Virus record (IMG/VR): IMGVR_UViG_2778261505_000002
From: a virus
Lineage: Duplodnaviria > Heunggongvirae > Uroviricota > Caudoviricetes
Direction: 5' to 3' (one strand)
Length of the DNA stretch: 64,000 nt
The notes beneath the pieces are model-generated. The model was not told where the DNA came from, ran no database searches, and saw only the letters and a program-made list of their open reading frames with translations. Shown here piece after piece: positions 1,090-13,282 of the stretch; the first letter of the stretch is position 1; each line of letters begins with the position of its first letter. Both the position numbers and the translations under genes were made by a program.

Positions 1090-4000
1090 TTGGACATGGA
1101 ACAGTTCAAGAAGAAAAAATTACCGCTTCTTATTGCCGGTGCTGGTGGCAAGAAAAGTAAAAGCTCCAGCCGTACCCCGGTTGAAGCTGATGATACTGTC
1201 AATTCTCGTGCTATGGCAGCCATCCTCGACCTTCTTGGCGAGGGGGTTATCGGTGGCCTGGTAAATGGCGCAAAGTCGATCTTCATCGACGATTTACCGA
1301 TCTTGAATGAAGATGGCTCTTCCAACTTCAGCGGTATTACATGGGATTTTCGTGACGGCTCACAAGACCAGACGCCAATGGCTGGTTTTGATTTTGTTGA
1401 AACGCCTAAGTCCGTAAATATTCAGCTTAAAAAAACACACGACGTTACGGTTTCAATCGATAACGATGAAGCTGATCGCGTTCGTGTCATCATGAAATTC
1501 CCCTCTTTACGTAGCGTTGATAAAAGCTCTGGCGATACAAATGGCACTACGGTGAAGTACAAATTCCAGATCGCCAACGCAGACGCAACATTTTCTGATG
1601 TAGTGGCAGAAGGTGAGAAAAGCGTTGATATCACGCTAACGGCAAAGAAAACCGGCGTGTATTACCGTAGCTATGAGCTGAAACTGCCTAAGCCTGGTCG
1701 TGCATACAAGGTTAGGGTGATTCGTCTTACAGATGATAATAGTAGCCAGTACCTCTACAACGACACATGGGTTGATTCCATCGGTGAGATTGTCGACACG
1801 CCAATGAACTACCCTAACTCTGCTCTTGTTGGCTTGAAGGTCAATTCAGAGCAGTTTGGTAGCACAATGCCTTCCCGTTCGTATTTGGTGCGCGGTATCA
1901 AAATCCGAGTACCGTCAAACTACAACGAATACACCAATACTTATGTCGGCGTATGGGACGGTACTTTTAAGCTGTTGTCTTCTTCAAACCCTGCGTGGAT
2001 TCTCTACGATTTGCTTACCAATACTCGGTATGGTCTTGGGCAATTTGTGTCGGAATCCATGATTGACCTCGGCCAGCTCTACCAGATTGGTCGATATTGT
2101 GACGAAGAGGTCGATGATGGCTTTGGGGGTAAAGAGAAACGCTTTGCAATCAATACGCAGATCACCAGTCGACAAGACGCATACCGATTAATTCAGGATA
2201 TTGCCGGTGCATTCCGCGGCATGGTGTTTTGGGCTGGTGGCATGGTTAACATCATGCAGGATAGCCCATCAGATCCGGTAATGATGTTTACCAACTCCAA
2301 CGTCAAAGATGGACTGTTTACCTATAAAGGTTCTGCGCGTAAAGATCGCCCATCCGTTGCGCTCGTAACCTACAACAACAAGGAGGACGGTTATAAGCAA
2401 AATATCGAGTACGTTGAAGATCAGGACGCAATGCGCCGTTATGGTGAGCGTAAAACAGAAGTCGTAGCATTTGGATGTACAAGCCGAGGCCAGGCTCACC
2501 GAGTTGGTTTGTGGCTGTTGTATACCGCCAGAATGGAGTCGGATGTAATTACATTTACTGCCGGCTTAGACGCCTCATTTCTGATGCCTGGTGAAACCGT
2601 TCTGATTCAGAACAAATATCGTGCAGGTAAACGTAACTCCGGTCGAATTGTGGAGTTTACCAAAAACAGCATCACTCTCGATGCGCCTGTGTCGTTAGCT
2701 AAAAGCGGCAGCTTTATTCGGATATTGAATCAGGAAGGCAAAATCGTTGAACGCGATGTTCTTGAAACTGGCGAAAACATAACAAAGGTTACGTTTTCAA
2801 AAGCCCTGTCGTCAGCGGAAACGCCTGTTTTGAACGGTGTCTGGACAATTACAGAACCAGATCTCGAACCTATGCGCGTTCGCATCGTTAACATCGCACA
2901 GGGGGAAACGTCGGGTAGCTTTGACATCACCGCTGTTGAGAACAATCCGTCTAAATATGAGGCAATCGACAATGGTGCAACGCTGATCCCGCAGAATACG
3001 ACGGTATTGGACCCAACTTACTCCAAGCCATCTAATCTGCAAATCACTGAAGGGACTTATCTCTCAAGCCCGGGCAACCTGTCAGTAAAACTGACTGCAA
3101 CATGGGAAGGGAAATCTCCAGAGTATTGGATCAGTTGGCGACGTTCTGATGAAAACAATGTATCGAACTGGCAATCGGCGCGTGTAACCGAAGAGCAATA
3201 CGAAATCGTTAATGTCGCGGAGAATGGACGCTACGACTTCCAGCTGTATGCGGTTTCATTCAACGGTAAAAAAACAGAGATTATCAGTACCGTTTATCAG
3301 GTGTTGGGCACAATGACACCGCCTGATGCCCCAACGTCATTAACGGCCGTTGGAGACTATCGTAATGTGATACTGAATTGGGTTAATCCAGATTCGGTAG
3401 ACCTTGATCACATTAATGTTTACGCATCCCAGACCAACAATCTGGATACGGCGAAACTGATCGCAGAGTCTGCAAGCACCACCTTTACACATGCTGGTCT
3501 TGGGGATAGCGAAACGTGGTATTACTGGGTTCGAGCATCGAACAAGCGAGGTATGTTAAGTCCTCCGAACTCAAACTTGGGTACAGAGGCGACAACTCGC
3601 GATGTACTGTCGTTCCTGACTGGCAAAATTACATCTTCCGAGCTTGGTCAGGCTCTGCTTGAGGACATCAACAGCAAAGTCTCTCAAGAAGCAGTTGACG
3701 AGTTAAATGAGCATATCAACCAGAGCGTCGAATCTTTAGAGGGGGCGGTAAACGACGTTAAGGAAGATATAGCTGAATTAGATAAGCAGTTCAGCGATAA
3801 CCTCGCGGGTTTTGAAATAAAATTCAACGAGCGTAGCGATGCTTTGGAGAACGCACAAACCGAGCTTAAAGGTGAGGTTTCGGCAACGATTAACAAGGTC
3901 AATGAAGCGTTTGAAAAAATTGATGCTACTGATGCTGCAATTGTTGAAATCGAAAACACCGTATCTGAACACGATAAAGCTCTCGCTAATACAGTCGAGG

Positions 4001-5820
4001 CAATAAAGGCTGCAAGAGATGAAGCGGCGGCTCTTATTGCTAAGGAAAGCGAGGCTCGTGTTGAAGGTGATGCTGCAAACGCTAAACAACTGGAAGTGTT
4101 GCAGTCAACGGTAGAGGAAAGCTCCGCTGCCGTTGAAGAAATGAAAAAGACGGTTGCAGAGGTCGATCGTGCCAGTGCAGAACTGACTACGAACATTGAG
4201 GCTTTGGCCAAAACAAATATTGACCTGGCTCTTCGTCAAGATGAAGACCAGCACAAGCAGATGGTCAATAACGCGAAGATCGCAACAACACAGAAAACCT
4301 TTGCTGATGATATGTCTGCAATGGCCACGAAGGTTGAGGAAATTCGCGTAGAAATTGGCGAAGATATTAAGGCCAGTATTCTGGAAGAGTCCACCGCTCG
4401 TGCCGATGGCGATGAAGCGTTGGCAAAGCGTGTCACTCAGCTGCAATCTAAGTTTGAAGGAGATATCAGCGCGGCGATTAGTACAGAGCAGGAGGCTCGT
4501 ACATCTGCCGATGAAGCTCTGACGACACAAATCACTCAGCTTGAGTCGAAAGTAAGCAACGATATCGTCGCAGCTATTAAGGAAGAGCAAGAAGCCCGAG
4601 CAACGGAAGATTCGGCTCTGGCAAGCCAGATCACCCAACTTCAGGCAAAGGTTGATGATGATATTTCTGCTGCAATACGCAGTGAGCAGGAGGCCCGAGC
4701 AAGCGGGGACTCTGCGTTAGCCAAACAAATAAACCAGCTTCAGTCAAAGGTTGACGGTGATATATCCGCTGCCATCACTCAGGAGCAGGAGGCCAGAGCA
4801 AGTGCTGACCAGGCGCTCTCACGAGAAATTAACAGCCTGCGAGCACAAACCGGAACTGATATTGCCGCAGCGGTTGCTGTAGAGACAAAAGCAAGGACTG
4901 ATGCCGATAGTGCATTGTCTACCCAGATTACGTCTCTTACAGCAAAAGCTAATGATCTCAAGGCGTCTCTTGCCAGAGAAACAACGGCTCGTGCAGATGG
5001 TGATACCGCTTTAACAAAAGAGGTTTCAAGTTTAAAAGCACAGACAGCGAAAGATATTAGTGCGGCCGTTGCAGTTGAAACGCAGGCTCGAACTGATGCT
5101 GACTCGGCGTTGTCGTCTCAGATCACCAAGCTGACCTCTCAATACAAAGAGGATATTAAAGCGGCTGTAGCAACCGAAACGAAAACGCGTACAGAGCAAG
5201 ATGCTGCATTGGCGACTCAAATCACAAACTTAGAGTCTCAAACGGCAGCCAACATTTCCGCGGCGGTCACAACTGAAACGAAAGCGAGAACGCAGGCAGA
5301 TAATGCTCTGAGTGGGCGAATCGATACTCTGAAAGCAGAGGTGAATGGAAATACCGCGACAATTCAACAGCAGGCAACAGCTATTGCTGATACCAACAAA
5401 AAAGTGTCAACCGCGTGGACGTTGAAAATGGAGACTTCAACGAGCGGAGGGCAGAAGTATGTTGCCGGTATTGCGCTTGGTATTGACACCACTGGGCTAT
5501 CTCAGTTTTTGGTTCAGGCGGACAGGTTTGGTTTGGTCAACTCTGTTAACGGGAAGATCACAACGCCATTTGTTATCGAAAACAGTATCGCCTATATGAA
5601 TGGAGCGTATATCAAGGATGGCACAATCACCAATGCAAAAGTAGGCGATCTGCAATCTACCAATTTTGTTAGCGGTAGATCTGGATGGCGGTTCGGCAAA
5701 AATGGAACGCTTGAGATCAACGGTAATAGCGGCGGCAATGGGCGATTGGTTATAAATGGTCAGCGGATTGACGTTTATGACGATAACAACGTCTTACGAG
5801 TAAGAATTGGCCGTCTGTGA
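1090..5820 (+). CDS. Tail tip / host specificity protein, lambda gpJ-like (central tail fibre), with a coiled-coil tandem-repeat domain
   Basis: 1576 aa; N-terminus resembles lambda J; FN3-like middle section; about ten tandem ~33-aa repeats (EQEARxxxDxALxxQIxxLxSKVxxDIxAAI) between ~4380 and 5340. Confidence 0.8.
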   Translation: MDMEQFKKKKLPLLIAGAGGKKSKSSSRTPVEADDTVNSRAMAAILDLLGEGVIGGLVNGAKSIFIDDLPILNEDGSSNFSGITWDFRDGSQDQTPMAGFDFVETPKSVNIQLKKTHDVTVSIDNDEADRVRVIMKFPSLRSVDKSSGDTNGTTVKYKFQIANADATFSDVVAEGEKSVDITLTAKKTGVYYRSYELKLPKPGRAYKVRVIRLTDDNSSQYLYNDTWVDSIGEIVDTPMNYPNSALVGLKVNSEQFGSTMPSRSYLVRGIKIRVPSNYNEYTNTYVGVWDGTFKLLSSSNPAWILYDLLTNTRYGLGQFVSESMIDLGQLYQIGRYCDEEVDDGFGGKEKRFAINTQITSRQDAYRLIQDIAGAFRGMVFWAGGMVNIMQDSPSDPVMMFTNSNVKDGLFTYKGSARKDRPSVALVTYNNKEDGYKQNIEYVEDQDAMRRYGERKTEVVAFGCTSRGQAHRVGLWLLYTARMESDVITFTAGLDASFLMPGETVLIQNKYRAGKRNSGRIVEFTKNSITLDAPVSLAKSGSFIRILNQEGKIVERDVLETGENITKVTFSKALSSAETPVLNGVWTITEPDLEPMRVRIVNIAQGETSGSFDITAVENNPSKYEAIDNGATLIPQNTTVLDPTYSKPSNLQITEGTYLSSPGNLSVKLTATWEGKSPEYWISWRRSDENNVSNWQSARVTEEQYEIVNVAENGRYDFQLYAVSFNGKKTEIISTVYQVLGTMTPPDAPTSLTAVGDYRNVILNWVNPDSVDLDHINVYASQTNNLDTAKLIAESASTTFTHAGLGDSETWYYWVRASNKRGMLSPPNSNLGTEATTRDVLSFLTGKITSSELGQALLEDINSKVSQEAVDELNEHINQSVESLEGAVNDVKEDIAELDKQFSDNLAGFEIKFNERSDALENAQTELKGEVSATINKVNEAFEKIDATDAAIVEIENTVSEHDKALANTVEAIKAARDEAAALIAKESEARVEGDAANAKQLEVLQSTVEESSAAVEEMKKTVAEVDRASAELTTNIEALAKTNIDLALRQDEDQHKQMVNNAKIATTQKTFADDMSAMATKVEEIRVEIGEDIKASILEESTARADGDEALAKRVTQLQSKFEGDISAAISTEQEARTSADEALTTQITQLESKVSNDIVAAIKEEQEARATEDSALASQITQLQAKVDDDISAAIRSEQEARASGDSALAKQINQLQSKVDGDISAAITQEQEARASADQALSREINSLRAQTGTDIAAAVAVETKARTDADSALSTQITSLTAKANDLKASLARETTARADGDTALTKEVSSLKAQTAKDISAAVAVETQARTDADSALSSQITKLTSQYKEDIKAAVATETKTRTEQDAALATQITNLESQTAANISAAVTTETKARTQADNALSGRIDTLKAEVNGNTATIQQQATAIADTNKKVSTAWTLKMETSTSGGQKYVAGIALGIDTTGLSQFLVQADRFGLVNSVNGKITTPFVIENSIAYMNGAYIKDGTITNAKVGDLQSTNFVSGRSGWRFGKNGTLEINGNSGGNGRLVINGQRIDVYDDNNVLRVRIGRL

Positions 5821-5913
5821 TGGTGGAAAAAAAATTTTATATCGGTAAAAATAGGTAAGTATCTACTTAATGGCGGGCAAGGATAGCCCGCCAAATCAAG
5901 GAGCATATTCAAC

Positions 5914-8900
5914 ATGTGGTACAGGGAAGGTACTATCACATTTACACAGGGCAGCAATACTCTGGTTGGGGCAGGGACAGCCTGGAACGTAACAGCTAAT
6001 GGTGTGTTGCCGGGGATGATCGTCATTGGCCCCGACAATAAGCTGTATGAGATCAAGCGCGTAACCAGTGATACGAACATTGTTCTCTCAGAACCTTATA
6101 CCGGCGAAACTCAGTCTGAAGTTCCGTGCCGAATCATTACGACCTATGAAGGCGACTTAACACAGTTTAGCGCGCGCTTTACTGCGCTAATGTCGCGTAT
6201 ATCGGCTGATTCCAAGTCCATACGCAGTTGGTTGACTGCGCTGGATGAGGTGACAATCGAGCGTGAAGACGGTACAGAAGTGACCGTTAAGCCGCTAATG
6301 CAGATCGTCAACGAGCACAACGAAAACGTTGAGTGGTATAAAAATAACACTGACGCGATTGATGCTGCTGGCGACAAAGCTCGTGAGGCGGCGGCCAGTG
6401 CTGCCGCAGCAGCAAAAAGCGCCAATGCCGCTGGAGAAAAAGCCTCTCAAGCGTCTCAAAGTGCATCCGCTGCGGCATCCTCACAAAGTGCCGCAAGTGC
6501 GAGTGCAACTGCTGCGAAAAAATCTGAAACGAATGCTGCAGCGTCACAAAAATCTGCAGCCACTTCTGCATCCACCGCGACCACGAAGGCGTCAGAAGCT
6601 GCCACCTCAGCCCGGGATGCGGCGGCCTCAAAAGAGGCAGCGAAATCATCAGAAACGAGCGCAGCCTCGAGCGCCAGTAATGCCGCTTCCTCGGCAACGG
6701 CGGCAGGAAATTCCGCGAAGGCGGCAAAAACGTCCGAGACGAACGCCAGGTCTTCTGAAACGGCAGCGGGACAGAGCGCCTCGGCTGCGGCAGGCTCAAA
6801 AACAGCGGCTGCGTCGTCTGCCAGTGCCGCGTCAACAAGTGCCGGGCAGGCCTCAGCCAGTGCCACCGCCGCCGGAAAATCGGCAGAAAGTGCCGCATCG
6901 TCTGCTTCAACTGCCACAACGAAGGCTGGCCAAGCCACTGAACAGGCCAGCGCAGCAGCGAGGTCTGCTTCCGCAGCGAAGACATCCGAAACGAACGCGA
7001 AAGCGTCGGAAACCCGTGCAGAATCCTCAAAAACGGCAGCCGCATCGTCCGCCAGTTCGGCGGCGTCATCGGCATCATCGGCGTCTGCTTCAAAAGATGA
7101 GGCGACCAGACAGGCGTCAGCAGCGAAGGGCAGCGCCACGACGGCATCCACGAAAGCAACAGAGGCGGCAGGCAGTGCGACGGCAGCATCTCAGAGCAAA
7201 ACTGCTGCTGAATCCGCTGCGACCCGTGCGGAAGCTGCTGCTGATCGTGCTGAAGAGATTGCCGGTGCAGTTGCGATGGAAGACGCAAGCCTTACAACTA
7301 AAGGTGTTGTGAAACTTAGCAGTGCTGTCGACAGCACCAGTGAATCGCTGGCCGCAACGCCAAAAGCAGTTAAAGCAGCCAATGACAATGCGAATAGCAG
7401 GGTGCCATCTAACCGAAAAGTTAACGGTAAAGCACTGACTGCGGATATCAAATTAACGCCGAAAGATATTGGTACTTTAAATTCAGTAACGATGTCTTTC
7501 TCTGGCGGGGCAGGGTGGTTCAAACTGGCTACGGTTACCATGCCACAAGCGAGTTCCATCGTTTACATCGCATTGATTGGTGGCGCTGGTTACAACGTCG
7601 GCTCCCCACATCAGGCAGGCATTTCAGAACTGGTTCTACGAGCAGGCAATGGAAACCCCAAAGGGATTACAGGTGCTTTGTGGAAGCGTACAGCTGTCGG
7701 ATTAACGAATTTCGCCTGGATCAACACATCCGGCGATACATATGATATTTACGTTGAGATTGGCAATTATGCGACTCGTGTAAATATCCATTGGGATTGT
7801 ACTGCAAATGCGACAGTTTCTATTTATACCTCGCCAACATATTCAGCGAGTAAGCCTTCCAGCGTTACCGATGGTGTTGTTTATACGATGTATAGCACAC
7901 ATCAGAAACCGACGCCGTTAGATATTGGAGCACTGCCAACAACCGGAGGAACAGTTTCAGGTCCGTTGTCTGTTACAGGTGGATTAACTGGTTCATTGAA
8001 TGGTAATGCAAGTACAGCCACGAAATTGCAGACGGCAAGATCTATCGGTGGAGTTGTTTTCGACGGTTCTGCAAATATTAACCTTCCAGGTGTAAACACT
8101 ACGGGTAATCAGAACACCACTGGTAATGCTGCAACTGCTACAAAACTTCAGACGGCAAGAACTATCGGCGGCGTGAGCTTTGATGGTACTGCGAATATTA
8201 ATTTGCCAGGTGTTAATACGACTGGTAATCAGAACACAACGGGCAACGCGGCTACTGCTACGAAGTTGCAGACTGCGCGTACTATCAATGGGGTGTCGTT
8301 TGACGGCTCGGCAAATATTGCCTTGTCGCCAGCAAATATAGGTTGCCCGGCATCTCCTACTGGTTGGTTAACTACAGGAAGTAATGGAGGAGCAATAACG
8401 ACAGCCCAGTTAGTTACTTTGTTGCAAAATAACGGGGCATTCAGTACGAAAGCATGGATCGCTCGTTGTGCATGGGCGTATGCGAATAGTGCATCCATAC
8501 CAGACAGTGAAACTGGTTGTGGCATTATTCCACTGGCGGGTGCTGTGATAGAAGTATTCAGCAATAATACCAACAATTACACCATTCGAATAACAACGGC
8601 CACTACGACAAATGTCTCTGGTGCACTCACTAATGCGGAGTTTATCTATGTGTCTAATGGCTCAAGTTATTCACCTGGATGGCGCAGAGCGTATAACACT
8701 AGAAACAAACCAACAGCTTCTGATGTAGGAGCATTACCGCTTTCAGGTGGCACATTATCTGGAGGGTTAACGTCTTCTGGTGAGATCGTTTCAAAATATG
8801 CAAATGGTTTCCGCATTGCTTACGGTAACTTTGGGTTCTTTATCCGTAATGATGGGGCGAACACATATTTCCTGCTAACAGCATCAGGAGACACATTAGG

Positions 8901-10065
8901 TTCATGGAACGGTTTGCGACCTATTACAATTAATAATACCAGCGGTGCTGTATCAATTGGTAATGGACTAAATGTGACTGGTGGCGTAAATGGTAGTTTG
9001 AACGGTAATGCTTCAACAGCTACGAAGTTGCAAACAGCGAGAAACATCAATGGTGTTAAGTTTGATGGTTCAGGCGATATCAATATTAATACATTGGTAT
9101 CTCGTGGCCGAGTTACGGCGTTAAGCGGCTCTACTCAAGGCACTGCTGGCATTCAAATGTATGAGGTGTACAACAATAGCTACCCGACCACGTATGGCAA
9201 CGTATTGCACATGAAAGGTGCGAGTGCTGCTGGTGAGGGCGAGTTGCTTATTGGCTGGAGTGGTACGAGCGGTGCACATGCGCCGGTTTTCATTCGCTCC
9301 CGAAGAGATTACACAGGTGCGGCATGGTCAGCGTGGGCGCAGGTATATACATCAAGGGACTCCATTCCTGGTGTGAATGCCACTGGTAATCAGAACACTA
9401 CTGGTAATGCCGCAACCGCCACAAAATTGCAGACAGCAAGGAAAATTGCTGGTGTGGCGTTTGATGGCTCTGCCGATATAACTTTGACTGCGGCTAACCT
9501 TAATGCTTACACGAAAACAGAGGTAGCAAACCTTCTAAGTTCCTATGCAAGCAGATCATCACTGACAGGCTATAGTGGCAACCTGGATATTGTTGCTGAA
9601 ACACTGGTTGTCAAATCAGGCGGTAGTGGAGGGTTTGCTATATGGGATATTGGCACAACTACTAGCGGTGCCAATATGTACATTGATCCAAACCCAGGTA
9701 TCAATACAGTTTGGCGTTCAACGTCTTCAAGGCGCTATAAAAAGGATATTGAAACATTACAAGATCGATATGCTGATGAACTTTTGTCATTAAGACCTGT
9801 TTGGTATCGTTCAATTTGTCGAGGTGACCGAAAGGATTGGGGGTATTACGGCCTTATTGCTGAAGAGGTTGGTGAGATTGCCCCGCAATATGTCCATTGG
9901 CGTGAACCAACAAATAATGATTCTCCAGAAGATATTTCCTCAAATGGTATGGTCGCTGAAGGAGTGATGTATGAGCGTTTGGTTGTACCACTCATTCATC
10001 ATATTCAGCAATTGACCAAAAGGGTTGAGGAGCTTGAAACGAAGTTAAATTCACCTAAAGAATAA
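5914..10065 (+). CDS. Tail fibre protein with C-terminal intramolecular chaperone (peptidase S74-like) domain
   Basis: 1383 aa; Ala/Ser-rich repeats (SETNA...); repeated NTTGNAATATKLQTARxIGGVxFDGxANI modules; C-terminal segment (YKKDIETL...GLIAEEV...ELETKLN) typical of the auto-cleaving chaperone domain of endosialidase/T5 pb1-type fibres. Confidence 0.8.
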   Translation: MWYREGTITFTQGSNTLVGAGTAWNVTANGVLPGMIVIGPDNKLYEIKRVTSDTNIVLSEPYTGETQSEVPCRIITTYEGDLTQFSARFTALMSRISADSKSIRSWLTALDEVTIEREDGTEVTVKPLMQIVNEHNENVEWYKNNTDAIDAAGDKAREAAASAAAAAKSANAAGEKASQASQSASAAASSQSAASASATAAKKSETNAAASQKSAATSASTATTKASEAATSARDAAASKEAAKSSETSAASSASNAASSATAAGNSAKAAKTSETNARSSETAAGQSASAAAGSKTAAASSASAASTSAGQASASATAAGKSAESAASSASTATTKAGQATEQASAAARSASAAKTSETNAKASETRAESSKTAAASSASSAASSASSASASKDEATRQASAAKGSATTASTKATEAAGSATAASQSKTAAESAATRAEAAADRAEEIAGAVAMEDASLTTKGVVKLSSAVDSTSESLAATPKAVKAANDNANSRVPSNRKVNGKALTADIKLTPKDIGTLNSVTMSFSGGAGWFKLATVTMPQASSIVYIALIGGAGYNVGSPHQAGISELVLRAGNGNPKGITGALWKRTAVGLTNFAWINTSGDTYDIYVEIGNYATRVNIHWDCTANATVSIYTSPTYSASKPSSVTDGVVYTMYSTHQKPTPLDIGALPTTGGTVSGPLSVTGGLTGSLNGNASTATKLQTARSIGGVVFDGSANINLPGVNTTGNQNTTGNAATATKLQTARTIGGVSFDGTANINLPGVNTTGNQNTTGNAATATKLQTARTINGVSFDGSANIALSPANIGCPASPTGWLTTGSNGGAITTAQLVTLLQNNGAFSTKAWIARCAWAYANSASIPDSETGCGIIPLAGAVIEVFSNNTNNYTIRITTATTTNVSGALTNAEFIYVSNGSSYSPGWRRAYNTRNKPTASDVGALPLSGGTLSGGLTSSGEIVSKYANGFRIAYGNFGFFIRNDGANTYFLLTASGDTLGSWNGLRPITINNTSGAVSIGNGLNVTGGVNGSLNGNASTATKLQTARNINGVKFDGSGDININTLVSRGRVTALSGSTQGTAGIQMYEVYNNSYPTTYGNVLHMKGASAAGEGELLIGWSGTSGAHAPVFIRSRRDYTGAAWSAWAQVYTSRDSIPGVNATGNQNTTGNAATATKLQTARKIAGVAFDGSADITLTAANLNAYTKTEVANLLSSYASRSSLTGYSGNLDIVAETLVVKSGGSGGFAIWDIGTTTSGANMYIDPNPGINTVWRSTSSRRYKKDIETLQDRYADELLSLRPVWYRSICRGDRKDWGYYGLIAEEVGEIAPQYVHWREPTNNDSPEDISSNGMVAEGVMYERLVVPLIHHIQQLTKRVEELETKLNSPKE

Positions 10066-10125: not shown

Positions 10126-10380
10126 ATGAGCTATGGTGCACAGGTTTGGTCGCCATCAAGACAGGAGATGGTCAATGCGTTGGCCCCTGTTTATTACCTC
10201 GATTATTTTACTCCCTCTGGTTCAGGAAGTAGAACATATGAGGTTGAGGCGGGATTGGGAATCGACTATTACATAATGGACGTAACCAATGGAAAGTACA
10301 CAAGTCTTACGGTTTCTGGAAATACCATTTCGTGGTCTGGAGCTAGTGGTAATTTAAACATATTGGTTTTTCAAAAATAA
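10126..10380 (+). CDS. Hypothetical protein (tail-fibre-adjacent)
   Basis: ORF with upstream AAGGA RBS; no recognisable motif. Confidence 0.4.
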   Translation: MSYGAQVWSPSRQEMVNALAPVYYLDYFTPSGSGSRTYEVEAGLGIDYYIMDVTNGKYTSLTVSGNTISWSGASGNLNILVFQK

Positions 10381-10988
10381 TGTACGGAAGCAAGATATAT
10401 CGATCTGACGGGAAGGTCTGGATGTCTCCTTCTTTGTCTCCTATCGTTTTTCAGAGAAAGCAGGTTGTTTCTTTGTCCGGCGGAACAGAGTTTAACACCA
10501 AAATATCTCCAGATCGTTCACCGATTATTTTTGTTGCCTATTCGAAAGCTGTTTCATTAATAGCCAACAGAATAGTGCGTAACAACCAGGTGATTTACAG
10601 TTTCGGAGGTCAGGGTAGCGACTCTAGTGCCACGATATACGTATTTTCGAAAGGTATAGCCAAAAAAGAAACTTGGGGCATGAGTTTTTTCAATGCACAA
10701 GGGGAGGAAATCTATAATACGGCAAATATCCCACTTTCATTTACCTTTCTTAATAATACAGAGTGGAACAGCTCTGGAGGGCATGTTTTTGATTACCCTC
10801 CAGCGATAATCCCAACATATGCGAATGTGTTCGCTGTTCCAGTACCGGGCGGAGCCATGACAATGGTTTATGGATATGCGGCATATGGAAATACTGTTAG
10901 CTCGATATTCGTAAACCAACTTAATGGCGGCCATAGTTTTAGCGTAAATGGCAGAGTACCGGTAATAAATAGAAATCTGTATAACTGA
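10380..10988 (+). CDS. Hypothetical protein (tail-fibre-adjacent, possible fibre accessory or assembly protein)
   Basis: 202-aa ORF whose start abuts the upstream stop; Gly/Ser/Asn/Tyr-rich composition. Confidence 0.4.
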   Translation: MYGSKIYRSDGKVWMSPSLSPIVFQRKQVVSLSGGTEFNTKISPDRSPIIFVAYSKAVSLIANRIVRNNQVIYSFGGQGSDSSATIYVFSKGIAKKETWGMSFFNAQGEEIYNTANIPLSFTFLNNTEWNSSGGHVFDYPPAIIPTYANVFAVPVPGGAMTMVYGYAAYGNTVSSIFVNQLNGGHSFSVNGRVPVINRNLYN

Positions 10989-10995
10989 TGAGTAA

Positions 10996-11229
10996 ATGAT
11001 GAAAAGATTATTTCTAACAATAGCTGTTGTTCTCTCTCTTACTGGCTGCCAGAAATTGCCGACACCTATATGTTATGGTGAAGCTATCATTGGTGGACAG
11101 GAGACAGTCATACCCATATATGCTGTTAAAAAAGTGAACGACTATACCTTATACAAAGCGGGTAGCATCTATAACTGGCGATGGGTTGGAGTAGGTGCTT
11201 TCTCATCAATCGGTTGCAATGCTGAATGA
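10996..11229 (+). CDS. Small lipoprotein; candidate Cor/Llp-like superinfection-exclusion protein
   Basis: Signal peptide with lipobox (LSLTG|C); 77 aa; located immediately downstream of the tail fibre genes. Confidence 0.5.
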   Translation: MMKRLFLTIAVVLSLTGCQKLPTPICYGEAIIGGQETVIPIYAVKKVNDYTLYKAGSIYNWRWVGVGAFSSIGCNAE

Positions 11230-11298: not shown

Positions 11299-11634
11299 AT
11301 GGAGGAAAACATGTCGAACGAGATGGCGGGCGTTACAACAGAGCAAGTTGAGCGTATTGCCGCGATCGTTGCTCGGGAGGTTGTTGGCAAATTAGGTAAA
11401 GAGCTACGTGAAGAAATTGGCCAGGAGGTCAATGATCAGCTGAAAACCTACTTTGGTGATATGACCCCGGCGCAACATAGTATTCAACACTCCAATCTGG
11501 ACAAACTCCTTAACCGGTTAGATTCCATCTCAAGTGGGTTCTTTGGCGGCATTGTTTCTAAAATAACGTCGTTCATTATTACCGCACTGCTTTTGGGGTT
11601 AGCCGCGTATGGCGTAAAAAGTGGACTGCAATAA
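11299..11634 (+). CDS. Hypothetical membrane protein; candidate holin
   Basis: 111 aa, soluble N-terminal part and one C-terminal TM helix; first gene of the putative lysis cassette. Confidence 0.35.
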   Translation: MEENMSNEMAGVTTEQVERIAAIVAREVVGKLGKELREEIGQEVNDQLKTYFGDMTPAQHSIQHSNLDKLLNRLDSISSGFFGGIVSKITSFIITALLLGLAAYGVKSGLQ

Positions 11635-11647
11635 CAGGAGATCAAGG

Positions 11648-12340
11648 ATGAAGACTCCGAGAGGCATTCGTAATAATAACCCCGGTAATCTTGATAAAGG
11701 ATCACCGTGGCAAGGTCTGGTTGCGAATCCAGACGAACCGCGCTTTTGCACGTTTAAAGACCCTGTTTGGGGGATTCGTGCGCTGGCGGTGACTCTAATT
11801 ACCTACCACGACAAACGTCGCGCAAAAGACGGCTCAAGTATCGATACCATTCGTGAAGTTATTGAACGTTGGGCACCGCCGAATGAAAACAATACTGACG
11901 CCTACATTAATGAGGTGTCTAAAGCCGTTGGTGTAACCGCAGACATGATCATCGATCTGCATGATTACGACATCCTTCGACCTTTGGTTGAGGCAATCAT
12001 TCGCCACGAGAATGGCCGAGGCCCGCTAAAAACGCTGAACACCTGGTATGCGGCAGAAGTTATTGAGGAAGGTCTGCGTCGAGCTGGCGTTGTTAAGCCG
12101 GTGAAAACCGTGAAGGCTGTTCCTGTAACTAAAGAAACCGCAGGCGCAACTGTTACAGCAGGTATTGGTCTGGCGCAGCTGGCCGATGTTATGCCGCAGG
12201 TTTCCGCTGCTATGGATAAAGCACAAGGTCATATCTCTAGCGGGGATACAGTACGCATCATCTTCGGTATTGCCACTATTGTTGTGGCAGGATTCATTGC
12301 CTGGTCGCAGGTAAGAAAACACCAGAAAGGGATGGTCTAA
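11648..12340 (+). CDS. Hypothetical protein with C-terminal TM anchor; candidate endolysin by position only
   Basis: Start chosen at the ATG preceded by AGGAG (the track ORF begins 27 nt earlier at 11621); conserved-looking N-terminal RNNNPGN motif; lies between the holin candidate and Rz/Rz1. Confidence 0.4.
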   Translation: MKTPRGIRNNNPGNLDKGSPWQGLVANPDEPRFCTFKDPVWGIRALAVTLITYHDKRRAKDGSSIDTIREVIERWAPPNENNTDAYINEVSKAVGVTADMIIDLHDYDILRPLVEAIIRHENGRGPLKTLNTWYAAEVIEEGLRRAGVVKPVKTVKAVPVTKETAGATVTAGIGLAQLADVMPQVSAAMDKAQGHISSGDTVRIIFGIATIVVAGFIAWSQVRKHQKGMV

Positions 12341-12760: not shown

Positions 12761-13282
12761 TTATTCTTCGAACAATTTTTCGATAGATTTTGTAGGATAG
12801 AACAAAGAACGCTCGTTGTTACCAACCAGCTGGATAAAGTCTAAACTTTTATAAAACGCCTTGGCTTTGTCATTTAACGCCTCAACGAAAAGTCCATGAA
12901 TGCCTACAGCAAGAGATGCATTGTACACAACGCGCATTGCATGTGTTACAAGCATTGAGCCAAATCCTTGACCTTGAAGGGACTTGTCCAAAGCCAGCCT
13001 ACCCAAAGTAACACTTGGAACATTCCGATAAGGTACCTTCTTTTGCTGGCTTCTTGAAGGTAAGGACTCCTTTTCAAAGCAGCTACCTGACAAAGTGTAA
13101 TACCCTAACACTTTTGGTCTGCCTTCTTTCGTGCAAAGCACATAAGCGCGAAGAATTTTTCCCTCATGCTGCCTTTTTAAGTGGTTGGTTAAAAAGGCAT
13201 TTAGTGATTCTTCACCGCAATCAAAACCATTCAAATCATAATCTTTCTCTCCAGAGAAAATTTCTATCTTTATATTATCCAC
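12761..13282 (-). CDS. GNAT-family acetyltransferase toxin (TacT/AtaT/KacT-like)
   Basis: GNAT fold motifs (QGQGFGSML, acetyl-CoA binding region); 173 aa; immediately downstream of a DUF1778-type RHH antitoxin gene. Confidence 0.8.
   Translation of the reverse strand: MDNIKIEIFSGEKDYDLNGFDCGEESLNAFLTNHLKRQHEGKILRAYVLCTKEGRPKVLGYYTLSGSCFEKESLPSRSQQKKVPYRNVPSVTLGRLALDKSLQGQGFGSMLVTHAMRVVYNASLAVGIHGLFVEALNDKAKAFYKSLDFIQLVGNNERSLFYPTKSIEKLFEE

What the first reader, a model, noticed from the sequence alone, without database searches (positions are those of the whole stretch)
7980..10065. Modular tail fibre: low-complexity Ala/Ser tract, repeated 40-aa receptor-binding-type modules and a self-cleaving chaperone
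The fibre contains an ~330-aa Ala/Ser/Thr-rich tract (6330-7300), at least three tandem ~120-bp modules (NTTGNAATATKLQTARxIGGVxFDGxANI; 7980-8340, with two more copies at ~8990 and ~9360) and a C-terminal intramolecular chaperone domain. Internal repeats provide substrates for domain shuffling and host-range switching.
Basis: partly seen in the sequence, partly recalled or inferred. Interest (0 to 1): 0.45.

Follow-up and report, generated by a model that had tools for sequence, protein, structure and literature searches.

The report
Mosaic side tail fibre, self-cleaving cap
This is an ordinary, already catalogued side tail-fibre gene of an SSU5-like E. coli phage-plasmid: knob domains are strung between a conserved 40-residue connector repeat, and the fibre ends in a self-cleaving folding cap.

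Summary
ORF 5914..10065 (+, 1383 aa) contains:
- a 300-aa Ala/Ser/Thr tract (6364-7263);
- five copies of a 40-aa unit, three tandem (7966-8325) and two dispersed (8968-9087, 9367-9486);
- a C-terminal Peptidase_S74 intramolecular chaperone (9724-10062).

The chaperone is backed by a Pfam hit above threshold, an invariant Ser1271/Lys1276 dyad, and fold matches to the MyRF, GA-1 and K1F chaperone structures.

The window is an SSU5-like E. coli phage-plasmid. Identical proteins are already in NCBI, and PHROG 3299 covers this one end to end.

One label is wrong. The 40-aa units are not receptor-binding modules. They are the most conserved parts of the fibre. Their one studied homologue, the phage L Dec C-terminal spike, is a trimerisation element that is unfolded in monomers.

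The shuffling idea holds at the level of module boundaries. Relatives lose exactly one unit, fuse unit 4 to unit 5, replace single knobs, or swap the whole distal end for another tip type. Most junctions fall in the units.

Within this gene, however, synonymous sites between units are saturated and exact nucleotide matches reach only 17 nt. The copies are therefore old.

Verdict: correct, ordinary, low novelty. The unit has no Pfam or NCBIfam model although it occurs in about 16,000 protein clusters.

The parts
5914..10065 (+). Side tail-fibre gene, 1383 aa, with AAGGAG RBS at 5898-5903
   Evidence: ORF list; sequence. 99.9% nt identity to E. coli plasmid NZ_CP023851.1, annotated 'tail fiber domain-containing protein'. 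PHROG 3299 covers it end to end.
5914..6363 (+). N-terminal anchor domain (aa 1-150), SSU5-family type
   Evidence: Only this part is shared (73-78% nt) with SSU5, Yersinia pestis pMT1-type, Enterobacter and Citrobacter phage-plasmids. It has no Pfam hit. In P0083/P0111 it is replaced by the lambda-type PF08400 domain.
6364..7263 (+). Ala/Ser/Thr-rich tract (aa 151-450)
   Evidence: 70-78% A+S+T. 54-72% identical to lambda Stf (orf-401) aa 205-352. 86-92% nt identical to many lambdoid stf genes. Relatives have length variants, e.g. a 105-aa deletion in P0043.
7288..7410 (+). PF03406 Phage_fiber_2 motif (aa 459-499)
   Evidence: Pfam E 2.1e-19. It aligns to Mu S 105-156 and lambda Stf 350-394. 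Homology with lambdoid fibres ends at aa 492-495.
7426..7899 (+). Knob module A (aa 505-662), followed by a KPTPLDIGALP linker at 7900-7965
   Evidence: It is replaced as a unit in P0094, between aa 493-507 and 670-684. A 64%-identical copy sits after unit 5 in P0044.
7966..8325 (+). Three tandem 40-aa connector units (u1 7966-8085, u2 8086-8205, u3 8206-8325)
   Evidence: TRF period 120; unit alignment. P0039 and P0057 lack exactly 40 aa here.
8326..8733 (+). Knob module B (aa 805-940), homologous to the Mu S' tail fibre
   Evidence: PDB 8ju3 residues 187-329, domain E 1.3e-27. It is replaced in P0056/P0059. A related domain is the terminal domain of the Cyrano-type fibre P0079.
8734..8967 (+). 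Module C (aa 941-1018), T4 gp34 / Mu S trimer domain
   Evidence: PF21446 Gp34_trimer, E 6e-31. PDB 4uxe, 5nxf and 5yvq.
8968..9087 (+). Connector unit u4
   Evidence: High-identity homology with Cyrano, P1-like plasmids and CMS-2020a ends inside it.
9088..9366 (+). Knob module D (aa 1059-1151)
   Evidence: It is deleted by a u4/u5 fusion in P0084 (q1049-1182) and P0118, and replaced in P0057 and Cyrano. It has no Pfam hit.
9367..9486 (+). Connector unit u5
   Evidence: Alternative C-termini begin in it or within 27 aa after it in P0044, P0118, P0079 and P0099.
9487..9723 (+). Distal tip (aa 1192-1270), the presumed receptor-binding end of the mature fibre
   Evidence: It is more variable than the chaperone: 29-57% identity against 58-77% among the closer homologues P0123-P0156. 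The monomer model has low pLDDT here. The receptor-binding role is inferred by analogy with other S74 fibres.
9724..10062 (+). Peptidase_S74 intramolecular chaperone (aa 1271-1383); predicted cleavage just before Ser1271 (9724-9726); Lys1276 at 9739-9741
   Evidence: PF13884, 30.6 bits against gathering 22. S1271, S1272 and K1276 are invariant in 47 homologues. AF2 pLDDT is 83-95 in this part. Foldseek: 7dc3 E 3.4e-6, 3gud prob 0.99, 3gw6 prob 0.85. Profile against PDB: 6f45 E 1e-7, 8hqz E 2.3e-7.

Best explanation
The gene encodes the homotrimeric side (lateral) tail fibre of an SSU5-like E. coli phage-plasmid.

Layout from N to C:
- an SSU5-type anchor that docks on the tail tip;
- a lambda-Stf-type Ala/Ser-rich stalk with the PF03406 motif;
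- a 'beads-on-a-string' distal half, in which globular knobs (A; B, Mu S'-like; C, gp34-trimer-like; D) alternate with a conserved 40-aa unit;
- a short variable tip;
- a Peptidase_S74 intramolecular chaperone.

Inferred mechanism: the three C-terminal chaperone domains associate and nucleate folding of the trimer from the C-terminus. The Ser1271/Lys1276 dyad then cuts the chain before Ser1271. That leaves a 1270-aa mature fibre and releases a 113-aa cap, so no separate Tfa chaperone is needed.

The 40-aa units are inferred to be short, inter-chain, beta-structured trimer clamps or shaft segments that keep the three chains in register between knobs.

The units are conserved across unrelated fibres (P1-like, T4 gp37, P2-like and others). 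With the Ala/Ser tract and the PF03406 motif, they are the joints at which modules and whole distal ends are exchanged, and that exchange changes host range.

Shown here: the anatomy, the homologies, the catalytic residues, the fold, and the positions of the module boundaries in relatives.

Inferred: trimer state, cleavage, the role of the units, and receptor binding.
For: Identity and context:
- J lies immediately upstream (PF24801, PF13550, PF09327).
- 99.9% identical to a 110-kb E. coli plasmid; 531 plasmid records match.
- Cyrano and SSU5 are relatives.

Chaperone:
- Pfam PF13884 above threshold.
- Invariant S1271, S1272 and K1276 with the Ser(+5)Lys spacing. EndoNF S911/K916 and MyRF S587/K592 have the same spacing (PMC8326128).
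- Fold matches to the MyRF ICA, GA-1 and K1F chaperones.
- Profile hits to S16 gp37 and a T5-like L-shaped fibre.
- No tfa gene downstream: the next genes are phrog_557, phrog_425, Cor and then the lysis genes.
- The relative L002, which has a different tip, does carry tfa.

Units as trimer connectors:
- A profile of the units matches phage L Dec residues 97-131 (E 0.002) and PhiM1 fibre gp47 residues 314-353.
- Dec residues 99-134 form the trimerising spike and are unfolded in monomers (PMC11398494).
- The AF2 monomer model gives only periodic small hairpins, pTM 0.27.
- In 150 representative proteins the units are either tandem (spacing about 40) or separated by inserts of 60-300 aa.

Joints:
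- P0039 and P0057 lack exactly one unit.
- P0084 fuses u4 to u5.
- P0094, P0056/59 and P0057 each replace one knob.
- P0044, P0079, P0113 and P0118 replace the distal end.
- 12 of 18 internal blastn endpoints in the distal half lie in units that cover 22.6% of it, binomial P = 8e-5.
- P1-like IncY plasmids share the block from the end of u1/u2 through u4 to u5.
Against: - Cleavage, trimer state and receptor binding were not observed; they are inferred.
- The link between the units and Dec rests on a short match (E 0.002) that carries a 7-aa insertion, and the Dec spike itself has no experimental high-resolution structure.
- BLAST alignments run on through any conserved motif. Endpoints inside units therefore show that units bound the exchanged cassettes, not that crossovers happened inside them. 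The 18 endpoints are also not independent events.
- Inside this gene the units share at most 17 nt of exact identity, and synonymous sites are saturated. RecA-type recombination between copies would be inefficient.
- About a third of the junctions lie elsewhere: the B/C linker near aa 933-937, inside knob D, and 13-27 aa after u5.
Confidence: 0.8

Rival explanations
1. The 40-aa units are themselves receptor-binding (for example carbohydrate-binding) modules, as the first reader labelled them. Extra copies would then add avidity.
For: The Dec authors speculated that the C-terminal spike might bind carbohydrate (PMC6449081). Copy number varies between relatives.
Against: The units are the most conserved parts of the fibre, with 21 of 40 columns invariant. 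They recur with the same core motif in fibres of phages with unrelated hosts, including Pseudomonas, Acinetobacter, Shewanella and cyanophages. Specificity-determining parts are expected to vary, as the tip and knobs do. The homologous Dec segment is required for trimerisation.
Confidence: 0.08
2. The tandem array is a recent duplication that works as a slippage- or recombination-prone contingency locus, tuning fibre length within a lineage.
For: Relatives differ by exactly one 40-aa unit (P0039, P0057). A u4/u5 fusion exists (P0084).
Against: u2 and u3 are 93% identical in protein but only 72% in DNA. 21 of 37 identical residues use different codons, against 24 expected for fully randomised codons. 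The longest exact nt run is 14-17 nt. The copies are therefore old or imported. u3 with module B is closer to P1-like plasmid genes (80-85% nt) than to its neighbour u2.
Confidence: 0.1
3. Receptor recognition is not confined to the 79-aa tip. One or more internal knobs (A, B, D) bind surface glycans side-on, which would make this a multivalent fibre.
For: A module-B-like domain is the terminal domain of the Cyrano-type fibre, which has no accessory gene. Module B is homologous to part of the Mu S' fibre, which recognises LPS core (PMC11821841). Module A occurs after the last unit in P0044. Knobs are swapped individually among close relatives.
Against: There are no binding data. The Mu S' residues that match (187-329) lie upstream of that fibre's own distal end. 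Knob swapping could be neutral hitch-hiking.
Confidence: 0.3
4. The S74 domain is a non-catalytic relic. The fibre stays full-length or needs another chaperone.
For: The Pfam score is modest (27-31 bits). No experimental data exist for this protein.
Against: The Ser/Lys dyad and the other core residues (RPV, YGLIAEE) are invariant. The model is confident and matches active chaperones. No tfa gene follows, whereas relatives with other tips carry tfa or a gp38-like gene. Cryo-EM of an S74-type BASEL fibre shows no density for the peptidase domain (bioRxiv 10.1101/2024.10.28.620165).
Confidence: 0.05

Closest known systems
Phage lambda side tail fibre Stf (orf-401/orf-314) with Tfa
   Same: The position after J is the same. 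The Ala/Ser-rich stalk and the PF03406 motif are homologous: 54-72% identity to orf-401 aa 205-394. Some relatives (P0083, P0111) even carry lambda's PF08400 N-terminal domain on this same fibre.
   Different: This gene has an SSU5-type N-terminus with no PF08400. It shows no similarity to the distal half, orf-314. No 40-aa units were detected in the lambda Stf parts compared. Lambda needs Tfa, whereas this fibre ends in an S74 chaperone and has no tfa.
S74 intramolecular-chaperone fibres and spikes: K1F endosialidase, T5 pb1 L-shaped fibre, S16 gp37, GA-1 neck appendage (and eukaryotic MyRF)
   Same: The C-terminal domain fold and the Ser(+5)Lys dyad are shared. The arrangement is also the same: a variable distal part sits directly upstream of the cleavage site.
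   Different: Everything upstream is unrelated. The pre-cleavage tip is only 79 aa. Sequence identity to solved chaperones is 11-21%.
P1 S / Mu S and S' tail fibres, and T4 gp34
   Same: Module B is homologous to Mu S' (8ju3). Module C is homologous to Mu S (5yvq) and to the T4 gp34 trimer domain. P1-like IncY plasmids share the block from u1/u2 to u5 at 80-85% nt identity.
   Different: Those fibres belong to contractile-tailed phages. P1 and Mu switch distal ends by DNA inversion and use Tfa-type chaperones. No invertase or invertible segment is seen here.
Phage L decoration protein Dec, C-terminal spike
   Same: Dec residues 97-131 match the core of the 40-aa unit: NAxTAxKLxTARTI...FDGSANV. 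That segment drives trimerisation and is unfolded in monomers.
   Different: Dec has a single copy with a 7-aa insertion, sits on a capsid protein, and the match is short (E 0.002).
Modular BASEL tail-fibre classes (TC12-TC14) with permutable pseudo-domains and a C-terminal S74 domain
   Same: The architecture is the same: mobile knob and gp34-type domains, a widespread beta-helical motif, an S74 cap that can be exchanged for other heads, and a published suggestion that mobile domains aid lateral transfer.
   Different: Those are fibres of virulent myoviruses, classified by predicted structure. No direct sequence comparison with them was made here.

Membership tests
Peptidase S74 / intramolecular chaperone auto-cleaving (ICA) domain | Sequence match to the family model above its curated threshold | tested here: met
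   PF13884 at aa 1271-1327: 27.2 bits for the whole protein and 30.6 bits for the fragment, against a gathering score of 22. Profile against PDB: S16 gp37 6f45 E 1e-7, T5-like 8hqz E 2.3e-7, MyRF 7dc3 E 1.3e-3.
Peptidase S74 / intramolecular chaperone auto-cleaving (ICA) domain | Ser-Lys catalytic dyad with the Lys five residues after the Ser (endoNF S911/K916, MyRF S587/K592) | tested here: met
   S1271 and K1276 are invariant in a 47-sequence alignment. They align to the SDRRIK motif of S16 gp37. The dyad definition is taken from PMC8326128.
Peptidase S74 / intramolecular chaperone auto-cleaving (ICA) domain | ICA fold ending in a long C-terminal helix that forms the trimeric coiled coil | tested here: met
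   The AF2 model has pLDDT 83-95 over aa 1271-1380 with a terminal helix at fragment residues 162-188. Foldseek: 7dc3 E 3.4e-6 prob 1.00; 3gud prob 0.99; 3gw6 prob 0.85.
Peptidase S74 / intramolecular chaperone auto-cleaving (ICA) domain | Auto-proteolytic release of the domain after trimer folding | not testable with these tools
   This needs mass spectrometry or SDS-PAGE of virions or recombinant protein, plus S1271A and K1276A mutants.
Lambda-type side tail fibre (Stf) | Prophage tail fibre N-terminal domain PF08400 | tested here: not met
   No PF08400 hit in this protein. It is present in the relatives P0083/P0111, which otherwise carry the same fibre.
Lambda-type side tail fibre (Stf) | Ala/Ser-rich stalk followed by the PF03406 repeat | tested here: met
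   54-72% identity to lambda orf-401 aa 205-394. PF03406 E 2.1e-19 at aa 459-499.
Lambda-type side tail fibre (Stf) | Separate Tfa assembly chaperone encoded immediately downstream | tested here: not met
   The downstream genes are phrog_557, phrog_425 and Cor, followed by the lysis genes as annotated in Cyrano. There is no Tfa family hit.
Pfam PF03406 'Phage tail fibre repeat' as the identity of the 40-aa units | The units match the PF03406 model | tested here: not met
   The three-unit segment gives no PF03406 hit even at E<=10. PF03406 matches aa 459-499 instead. NCBIfam has no hit. A 9-copy protein, P0196, also has no Pfam hit on its units.
SSU5-like phage-plasmid tail fibre | The N-terminal anchor is shared with SSU5 and related about 100-110-kb phage-plasmids, and the gene follows J | tested here: met
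   nt 1-513 are 77% identical to SSU5. The same segment is conserved in Yersinia, Enterobacter and Citrobacter plasmids. Synteny with Cyrano runs K, I, J, fibre, lysis genes.

The most novel reading that the evidence does not exclude
The 40-aa unit (core GNAxTATKLxTARxIxGVxFDGSxNI, with a longer variant carrying a 7-8-aa insertion) is an uncurated, pan-Caudoviricetes 'trimer-clamp' repeat. It would also be the main universal joint of tail-fibre evolution. It is kept nearly invariant in protein while its codons are fully scrambled, so copies within one gene rarely recombine, yet relaxed phage recombinases can still splice knob cassettes between unrelated fibres (SSU5-like, P1-like, T4-like, P2-like). 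If so, it could give a predictable grammar, and defined splice points, for engineering chimeric fibres.
Probability: 0.3. Interest if true: 0.45.

Novelty: already known. Interest (0 to 1): 0.22.

Why it matters
The practical value is modest. The map gives exact domain borders for a very common fibre of E. coli phage-plasmids, which also spread resistance genes.

It predicts the cleavage site (before Ser1271). It also shows where nature splices these fibres:
- the start and end of the Ala/Ser stalk;
- the end of the PF03406 motif;
- the 40-aa units;
- the KPTxxDxGALP linkers.

Those are candidate fusion points for host-range engineering.

It also flags a gap in curation. A 40-residue fibre repeat is present in about 16,000 protein clusters and in T4 gp37, P2-like and jumbo-phage fibres, yet it has no Pfam or NCBIfam model and no high-resolution structure.

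Tried and rejected
- **PF03406 as the identity of the units:** rejected. PF03406 hits aa 459-499, not the units.
- **Pfam and NCBIfam on the units:** nothing found, including on a 9-copy protein.
- **Single-sequence PDB search of the C-terminus:** only a weak T5-like hit, E 0.016. A 47-sequence profile and a fold search were needed.
- **AF2 monomer model of u1-u3:** pTM 0.27, showing only small periodic hairpins. It was too poor for a fold search, so none was run.
- **The tip (aa 1192-1270):** also poorly modelled.
- **Literature search for the motif strings (ATKLQTAR and others):** no relevant paper.
- **Lambda orf-314 against this fibre:** no similarity.
- **Recent tandem duplication:** rejected because synonymous sites are saturated.
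- **Long antisense ORFs over 6308-7312** (326, 327 and 231 aa): treated as by-products of the GC-rich low-complexity coding tract. They were not tested further.
- **Promoter and terminator scan across the gene:** no more sites than in shuffled sequence.

Full report
**1. What is there**

Window 5914..10065 (+) is one 1383-aa ORF. It has an AAGGAG ribosome-binding site at 5898-5903.

It follows directly after a 1576-aa J-type host-specificity gene at 1090..5820, which carries PF24801, PF13550, fn3 and PF09327.

At DNA level the gene is 99.9% identical to a 110-kb E. coli plasmid, NZ_CP023851.1, where it is annotated 'tail fiber domain-containing protein'. It matches 531 plasmid records, 90 of them over at least 80% of its length.

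Among phages the best match is Escherichia phage Cyrano (108 kb). SSU5 shares only the first ~510 nt. Synteny with Cyrano runs K, I, J, fibre, holin, endolysin, spanins, toxin-antitoxin, ParA.

The window therefore comes from an SSU5-like phage-plasmid, and the gene is its side tail fibre. Proteins 100% identical to it are in NCBI, UniRef and ENA, and PHROG 3299 covers it end to end.

**2. Checking the observation**

- **Ala/Ser/Thr tract.** It runs over aa 151-450 (nt 6364-7263), with 70-78% A+S+T in every 50-aa window.
- **Repeat at DNA level.** TRF reports a 120-nt period at 8013-8319, 74-76% matches, score up to 317.
- **Repeat at protein level.** There are five 40-aa units: u1-u3 in tandem (7966-8325), u4 (8968-9087) and u5 (9367-9486). 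21 of 40 columns are invariant, with the core GNA(A/S)TATKLQTARxIxGVxFDG.
- **No other copies.** A six-frame scan finds no further copy anywhere in the 64-kb window.
- **Two flavours.** The first 12 residues of the unit come in two forms. 'LxVTGGxxGSLN' follows a knob (u1, u4). 'PGVNxTGNQNTT' occurs in u2, u3 and u5.
- **Chaperone.** The C-terminus matches PF13884 Peptidase_S74 above the gathering score.

**3. Domain map (amino acids)**

| aa | Element | Evidence |
|---|---|---|
| 1-150 | SSU5-type anchor | no Pfam hit |
| 151-450 | Ala/Ser stalk | 54-72% identical to lambda Stf orf-401 |
| 459-499 | PF03406 motif | E 2e-19 |
| 505-662 | knob A | |
| 663-684 | KPTPLDIGALP linker | sequence |
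| 685-804 | u1-u3 | |
| 805-940 | knob B | homologous to Mu S', PDB 8ju3, domain E 1.3e-27 |
| 941-1018 | domain C | PF21446 Gp34_trimer, E 6e-31; PDB 4uxe, 5nxf, 5yvq |
| 1019-1058 | u4 | |
| 1059-1151 | knob D | no Pfam hit |
| 1152-1191 | u5 | |
| 1192-1270 | tip | |
| 1271-1383 | S74 chaperone | |

Lambda's distal half (orf-314) is unrelated.

**4. The chaperone**

- In an alignment of 47 homologues down to 27% identity, S1271, S1272, K1276, R1294-P-V and Y1312-G-L-x-A-E-E are invariant.
- Ser1271 and Lys1276 have the Ser(+5)Lys spacing of the catalytic dyads of endoNF (S911/K916) and MyRF (S587/K592) (PMC8326128).
- An AlphaFold2 model built on that alignment has pLDDT 83-95 across the domain.
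- Foldseek against the PDB returns only intramolecular chaperones as real hits: MyRF ICA 7dc3 (E 3.4e-6), GA-1 3gud (prob 0.99) and K1F endosialidase 3gw6 (prob 0.85).
- A sequence profile also reaches S16 gp37 (6f45, E 1e-7) and a T5-like L-shaped fibre (8hqz, E 2.3e-7).
- No tail-fibre-assembly gene follows. The next genes are an 84-aa and a 202-aa protein and a Cor exclusion lipoprotein.
- Relatives with other tips do carry tfa (L002) or a gp38-like 'receptor-recognizing protein' (L008, L009).
- Among the closer homologues (P0123-P0156) the tip is more variable (29-57% identity) than the chaperone (58-77%).

Membership in S74 is met on sequence, catalytic residues and fold. Cleavage itself cannot be tested here.

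**5. What the 40-aa units are**

They are not Pfam's 'Phage tail fibre repeat', and neither Pfam nor NCBIfam has a model for them. They are nonetheless very common.
- A profile of the five units finds 16,089 cluster representatives at E<=1e-3, and 812 at E<=1e-30, with up to 20 copies per protein.
- tblastn finds the unit in 335 phage records. These include T4, T6 and RB gp37, P2-like phages, the jumbo phage Goslar, PAK_P-like Pseudomonas phages, Acinetobacter T4-likes and a cyanophage.
- In the 150 best proteins the units are either tandem (spacing about 40) or separated by inserts of 60-300 aa. This is the same beads-on-a-string plan.

In the PDB the profile matches phage L Dec residues 97-131 (E 0.002) and the PhiM1 fibre gp47 residues 314-353 (E 0.012). 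Both carry a 7-aa insertion.

Dec residues 99-134 form the three-chain C-terminal spike. That spike holds the trimer together, is unfolded in monomers and assembles slowly (PMC6449081, PMC11398494).

My monomer AF2 model of u1-u3 shows only a small hairpin per unit (R-x-I / V-x-F) and has pTM 0.27. That is what a trimer-dependent fold would give, but it is weak evidence.

I conclude that the units are conserved trimeric shaft or clamp segments, not receptor-binding modules.

**6. Do the repeats mark shuffling points?**

*Protein-level comparison with 120 close relatives*
- P0039 and P0057 lack exactly 40 aa within the tandem array.
- P0084 lacks aa 1049-1182, which fuses u4 to u5 and removes knob D. 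P0118 has a similar deletion.
- P0057 replaces knob D between u4 and u5.
- P0056 and P0059 replace knob B, starting inside u2.
- P0094 replaces knob A, from just after PF03406 to just before u1.
- P0044, P0079, P0099 and P0118 diverge within u5 or 13-27 aa after it. P0113 diverges earlier, inside knob D (about aa 1123-1137).
- P0083 and P0111 carry lambda's PF08400 N-terminus, joined inside the Ala/Ser tract.

*DNA-level comparison with ten fetched loci*
- High-identity homology ends at the last bases of u2 in four loci: L002, L005 and L008 (SSU5-like elements) and L004, the lambdoid phage phi458.
- It ends in u4 for Cyrano and the P1-like plasmids.
- It ends or starts in u5 for L003, L009 and L010.
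- Twelve of 18 internal endpoints fall in units that make up 22.6% of the distal half (binomial P = 8e-5).

*Caveats*
- BLAST extends through any conserved motif, and the endpoints are not independent. The result shows that units bound the exchanged cassettes, not where the crossovers occurred.
- Other joints exist: the start of the Ala/Ser tract (aa ~175), the end of PF03406 (aa 492-495), and the KPTASDVGALP linker (aa 933-937).

*Recombination scar*

L002 retains the last 75 nt of the S74-type gene, 100% identical, just downstream of its tfa gene. This looks like a scar of cassette replacement.

**7. A qualification on intragenic recombination**

- u2 and u3 are 93% identical in protein but only 72% in DNA.
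- 21 of 37 identical residues use different codons, against 24 expected if codons were drawn at random from the gene's usage.
- The longest exact run between any two units is 17 nt.

The copies are therefore ancient or were imported separately. u3 plus knob B is closer to P1-like plasmid genes (80-85% nt) than to the adjacent u2. Copies within the gene are poor substrates for RecA-type recombination. Exchange between different fibre genes is what the data document.

**8. Comparison with what is known, and novelty**

The fibre combines parts that are each known:
- a lambda-Stf stalk;
- Mu, P1 and T4 gp34 shaft domains;
- an S74 cap, as in K1F endosialidase, T5 pb1 and S16 gp37.

A recent structural atlas of BASEL fibres already describes modular fibres with permutable pseudo-domains (pyocin knob, gp34-type, a widespread beta-helical motif) and exchangeable S74 or lectin heads. 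It suggests that such domains aid lateral transfer (bioRxiv 10.1101/2024.10.28.620165).

The exact protein is already in public databases. I rate it 'already known' and score interest low.

The only mildly new points are these:
- the very widespread 40-aa unit has no curated family and no high-resolution structure;
- its protein conservation coexists with saturated codon divergence;
- SSU5-like E. coli phage-plasmids mount at least four different tip systems on one proximal fibre.

Noticed in passing
window 1090-5820 (+), mainly about 3700-5300: The J host-specificity protein is 1576 aa. Between its fn3 region and the PF09327 tip domain it carries an insert of about 500 aa, made of about 11 degenerate 33-aa units (DISAAIxxEQEARxSADxALxxQITQLxSKV). 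It looks like a long coiled-coil extension of the central fibre. TRF sees no repeat at nucleotide level.
   Followed up: partly
window 10126-11229 (+): Three small genes lie between the fibre and the lysis cassette: an 84-aa protein (phrog_557), a 202-aa protein (phrog_425) and a Cor superinfection-exclusion lipoprotein (NF047972, E 9e-23). Cor hints that the J protein uses FhuA. Cyrano lacks all three genes.
   Followed up: partly
L002 (CP058914.1) 7889-7963, matching window 9991-10065: A relative whose fibre ends in a Tfa-dependent tip still carries the last 75 nt of the S74-type gene, 100% identical, just downstream of its tfa gene. This looks like a scar of cassette replacement. The left junction is the last bases of unit 2.
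   Followed up: partly
L001, L002, L008, L009, L010 versus window 9487-10065: Closely related SSU5-like E. coli phage-plasmids carry at least four distal-end systems on the same proximal fibre: an S74 self-chaperone, a Tfa-dependent tip, a gp38-like 'receptor-recognizing protein', and a module-B-like terminal knob with no accessory gene.
   Followed up: partly
proteins P0138-P0156: The tip plus chaperone (aa 1192-1383) has homologues at 48-57% identity that are stand-alone proteins of about 170-231 aa, on contigs of about 50 kb. Named examples are phages BEBK14, PeterMerian, Jahat_MG145 and orkinos. This suggests a split fibre, or a separately encoded tip, in those phages.
   Followed up: no
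window 6308-7312, both strands: Long ORFs of 231-327 aa in other frames and on the opposite strand overlap the Ala/Ser tract. They are most simply by-products of the GC-rich low-complexity coding sequence, not genes.
   Followed up: no
window 11621-12340 (+): The putative endolysin (239 aa) ends in a hydrophobic segment (IIFGIATIVVAGFIAW) followed by basic residues. That would be a C-terminal membrane anchor, which is unusual for an endolysin.
   Followed up: no
window 12761-13282 (-): A GNAT-type acetyltransferase ORF corresponds to the gene annotated as 'KacT acetyltransferase-type toxin', with an adjacent antitoxin, in Cyrano. This is a plasmid-maintenance module next to the lysis genes.
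   Followed up: no
window 7900-7965 and 8701-8763 (+): A second short recurring linker, KPTxxD(I/V)GALPxxGGTxSG, follows knobs A and B. The gp34 segment PQPSDIGALPSDNAT aligns to the copy after knob B. The copy after knob B is also a homology breakpoint (aa 933-937).
   Followed up: partly
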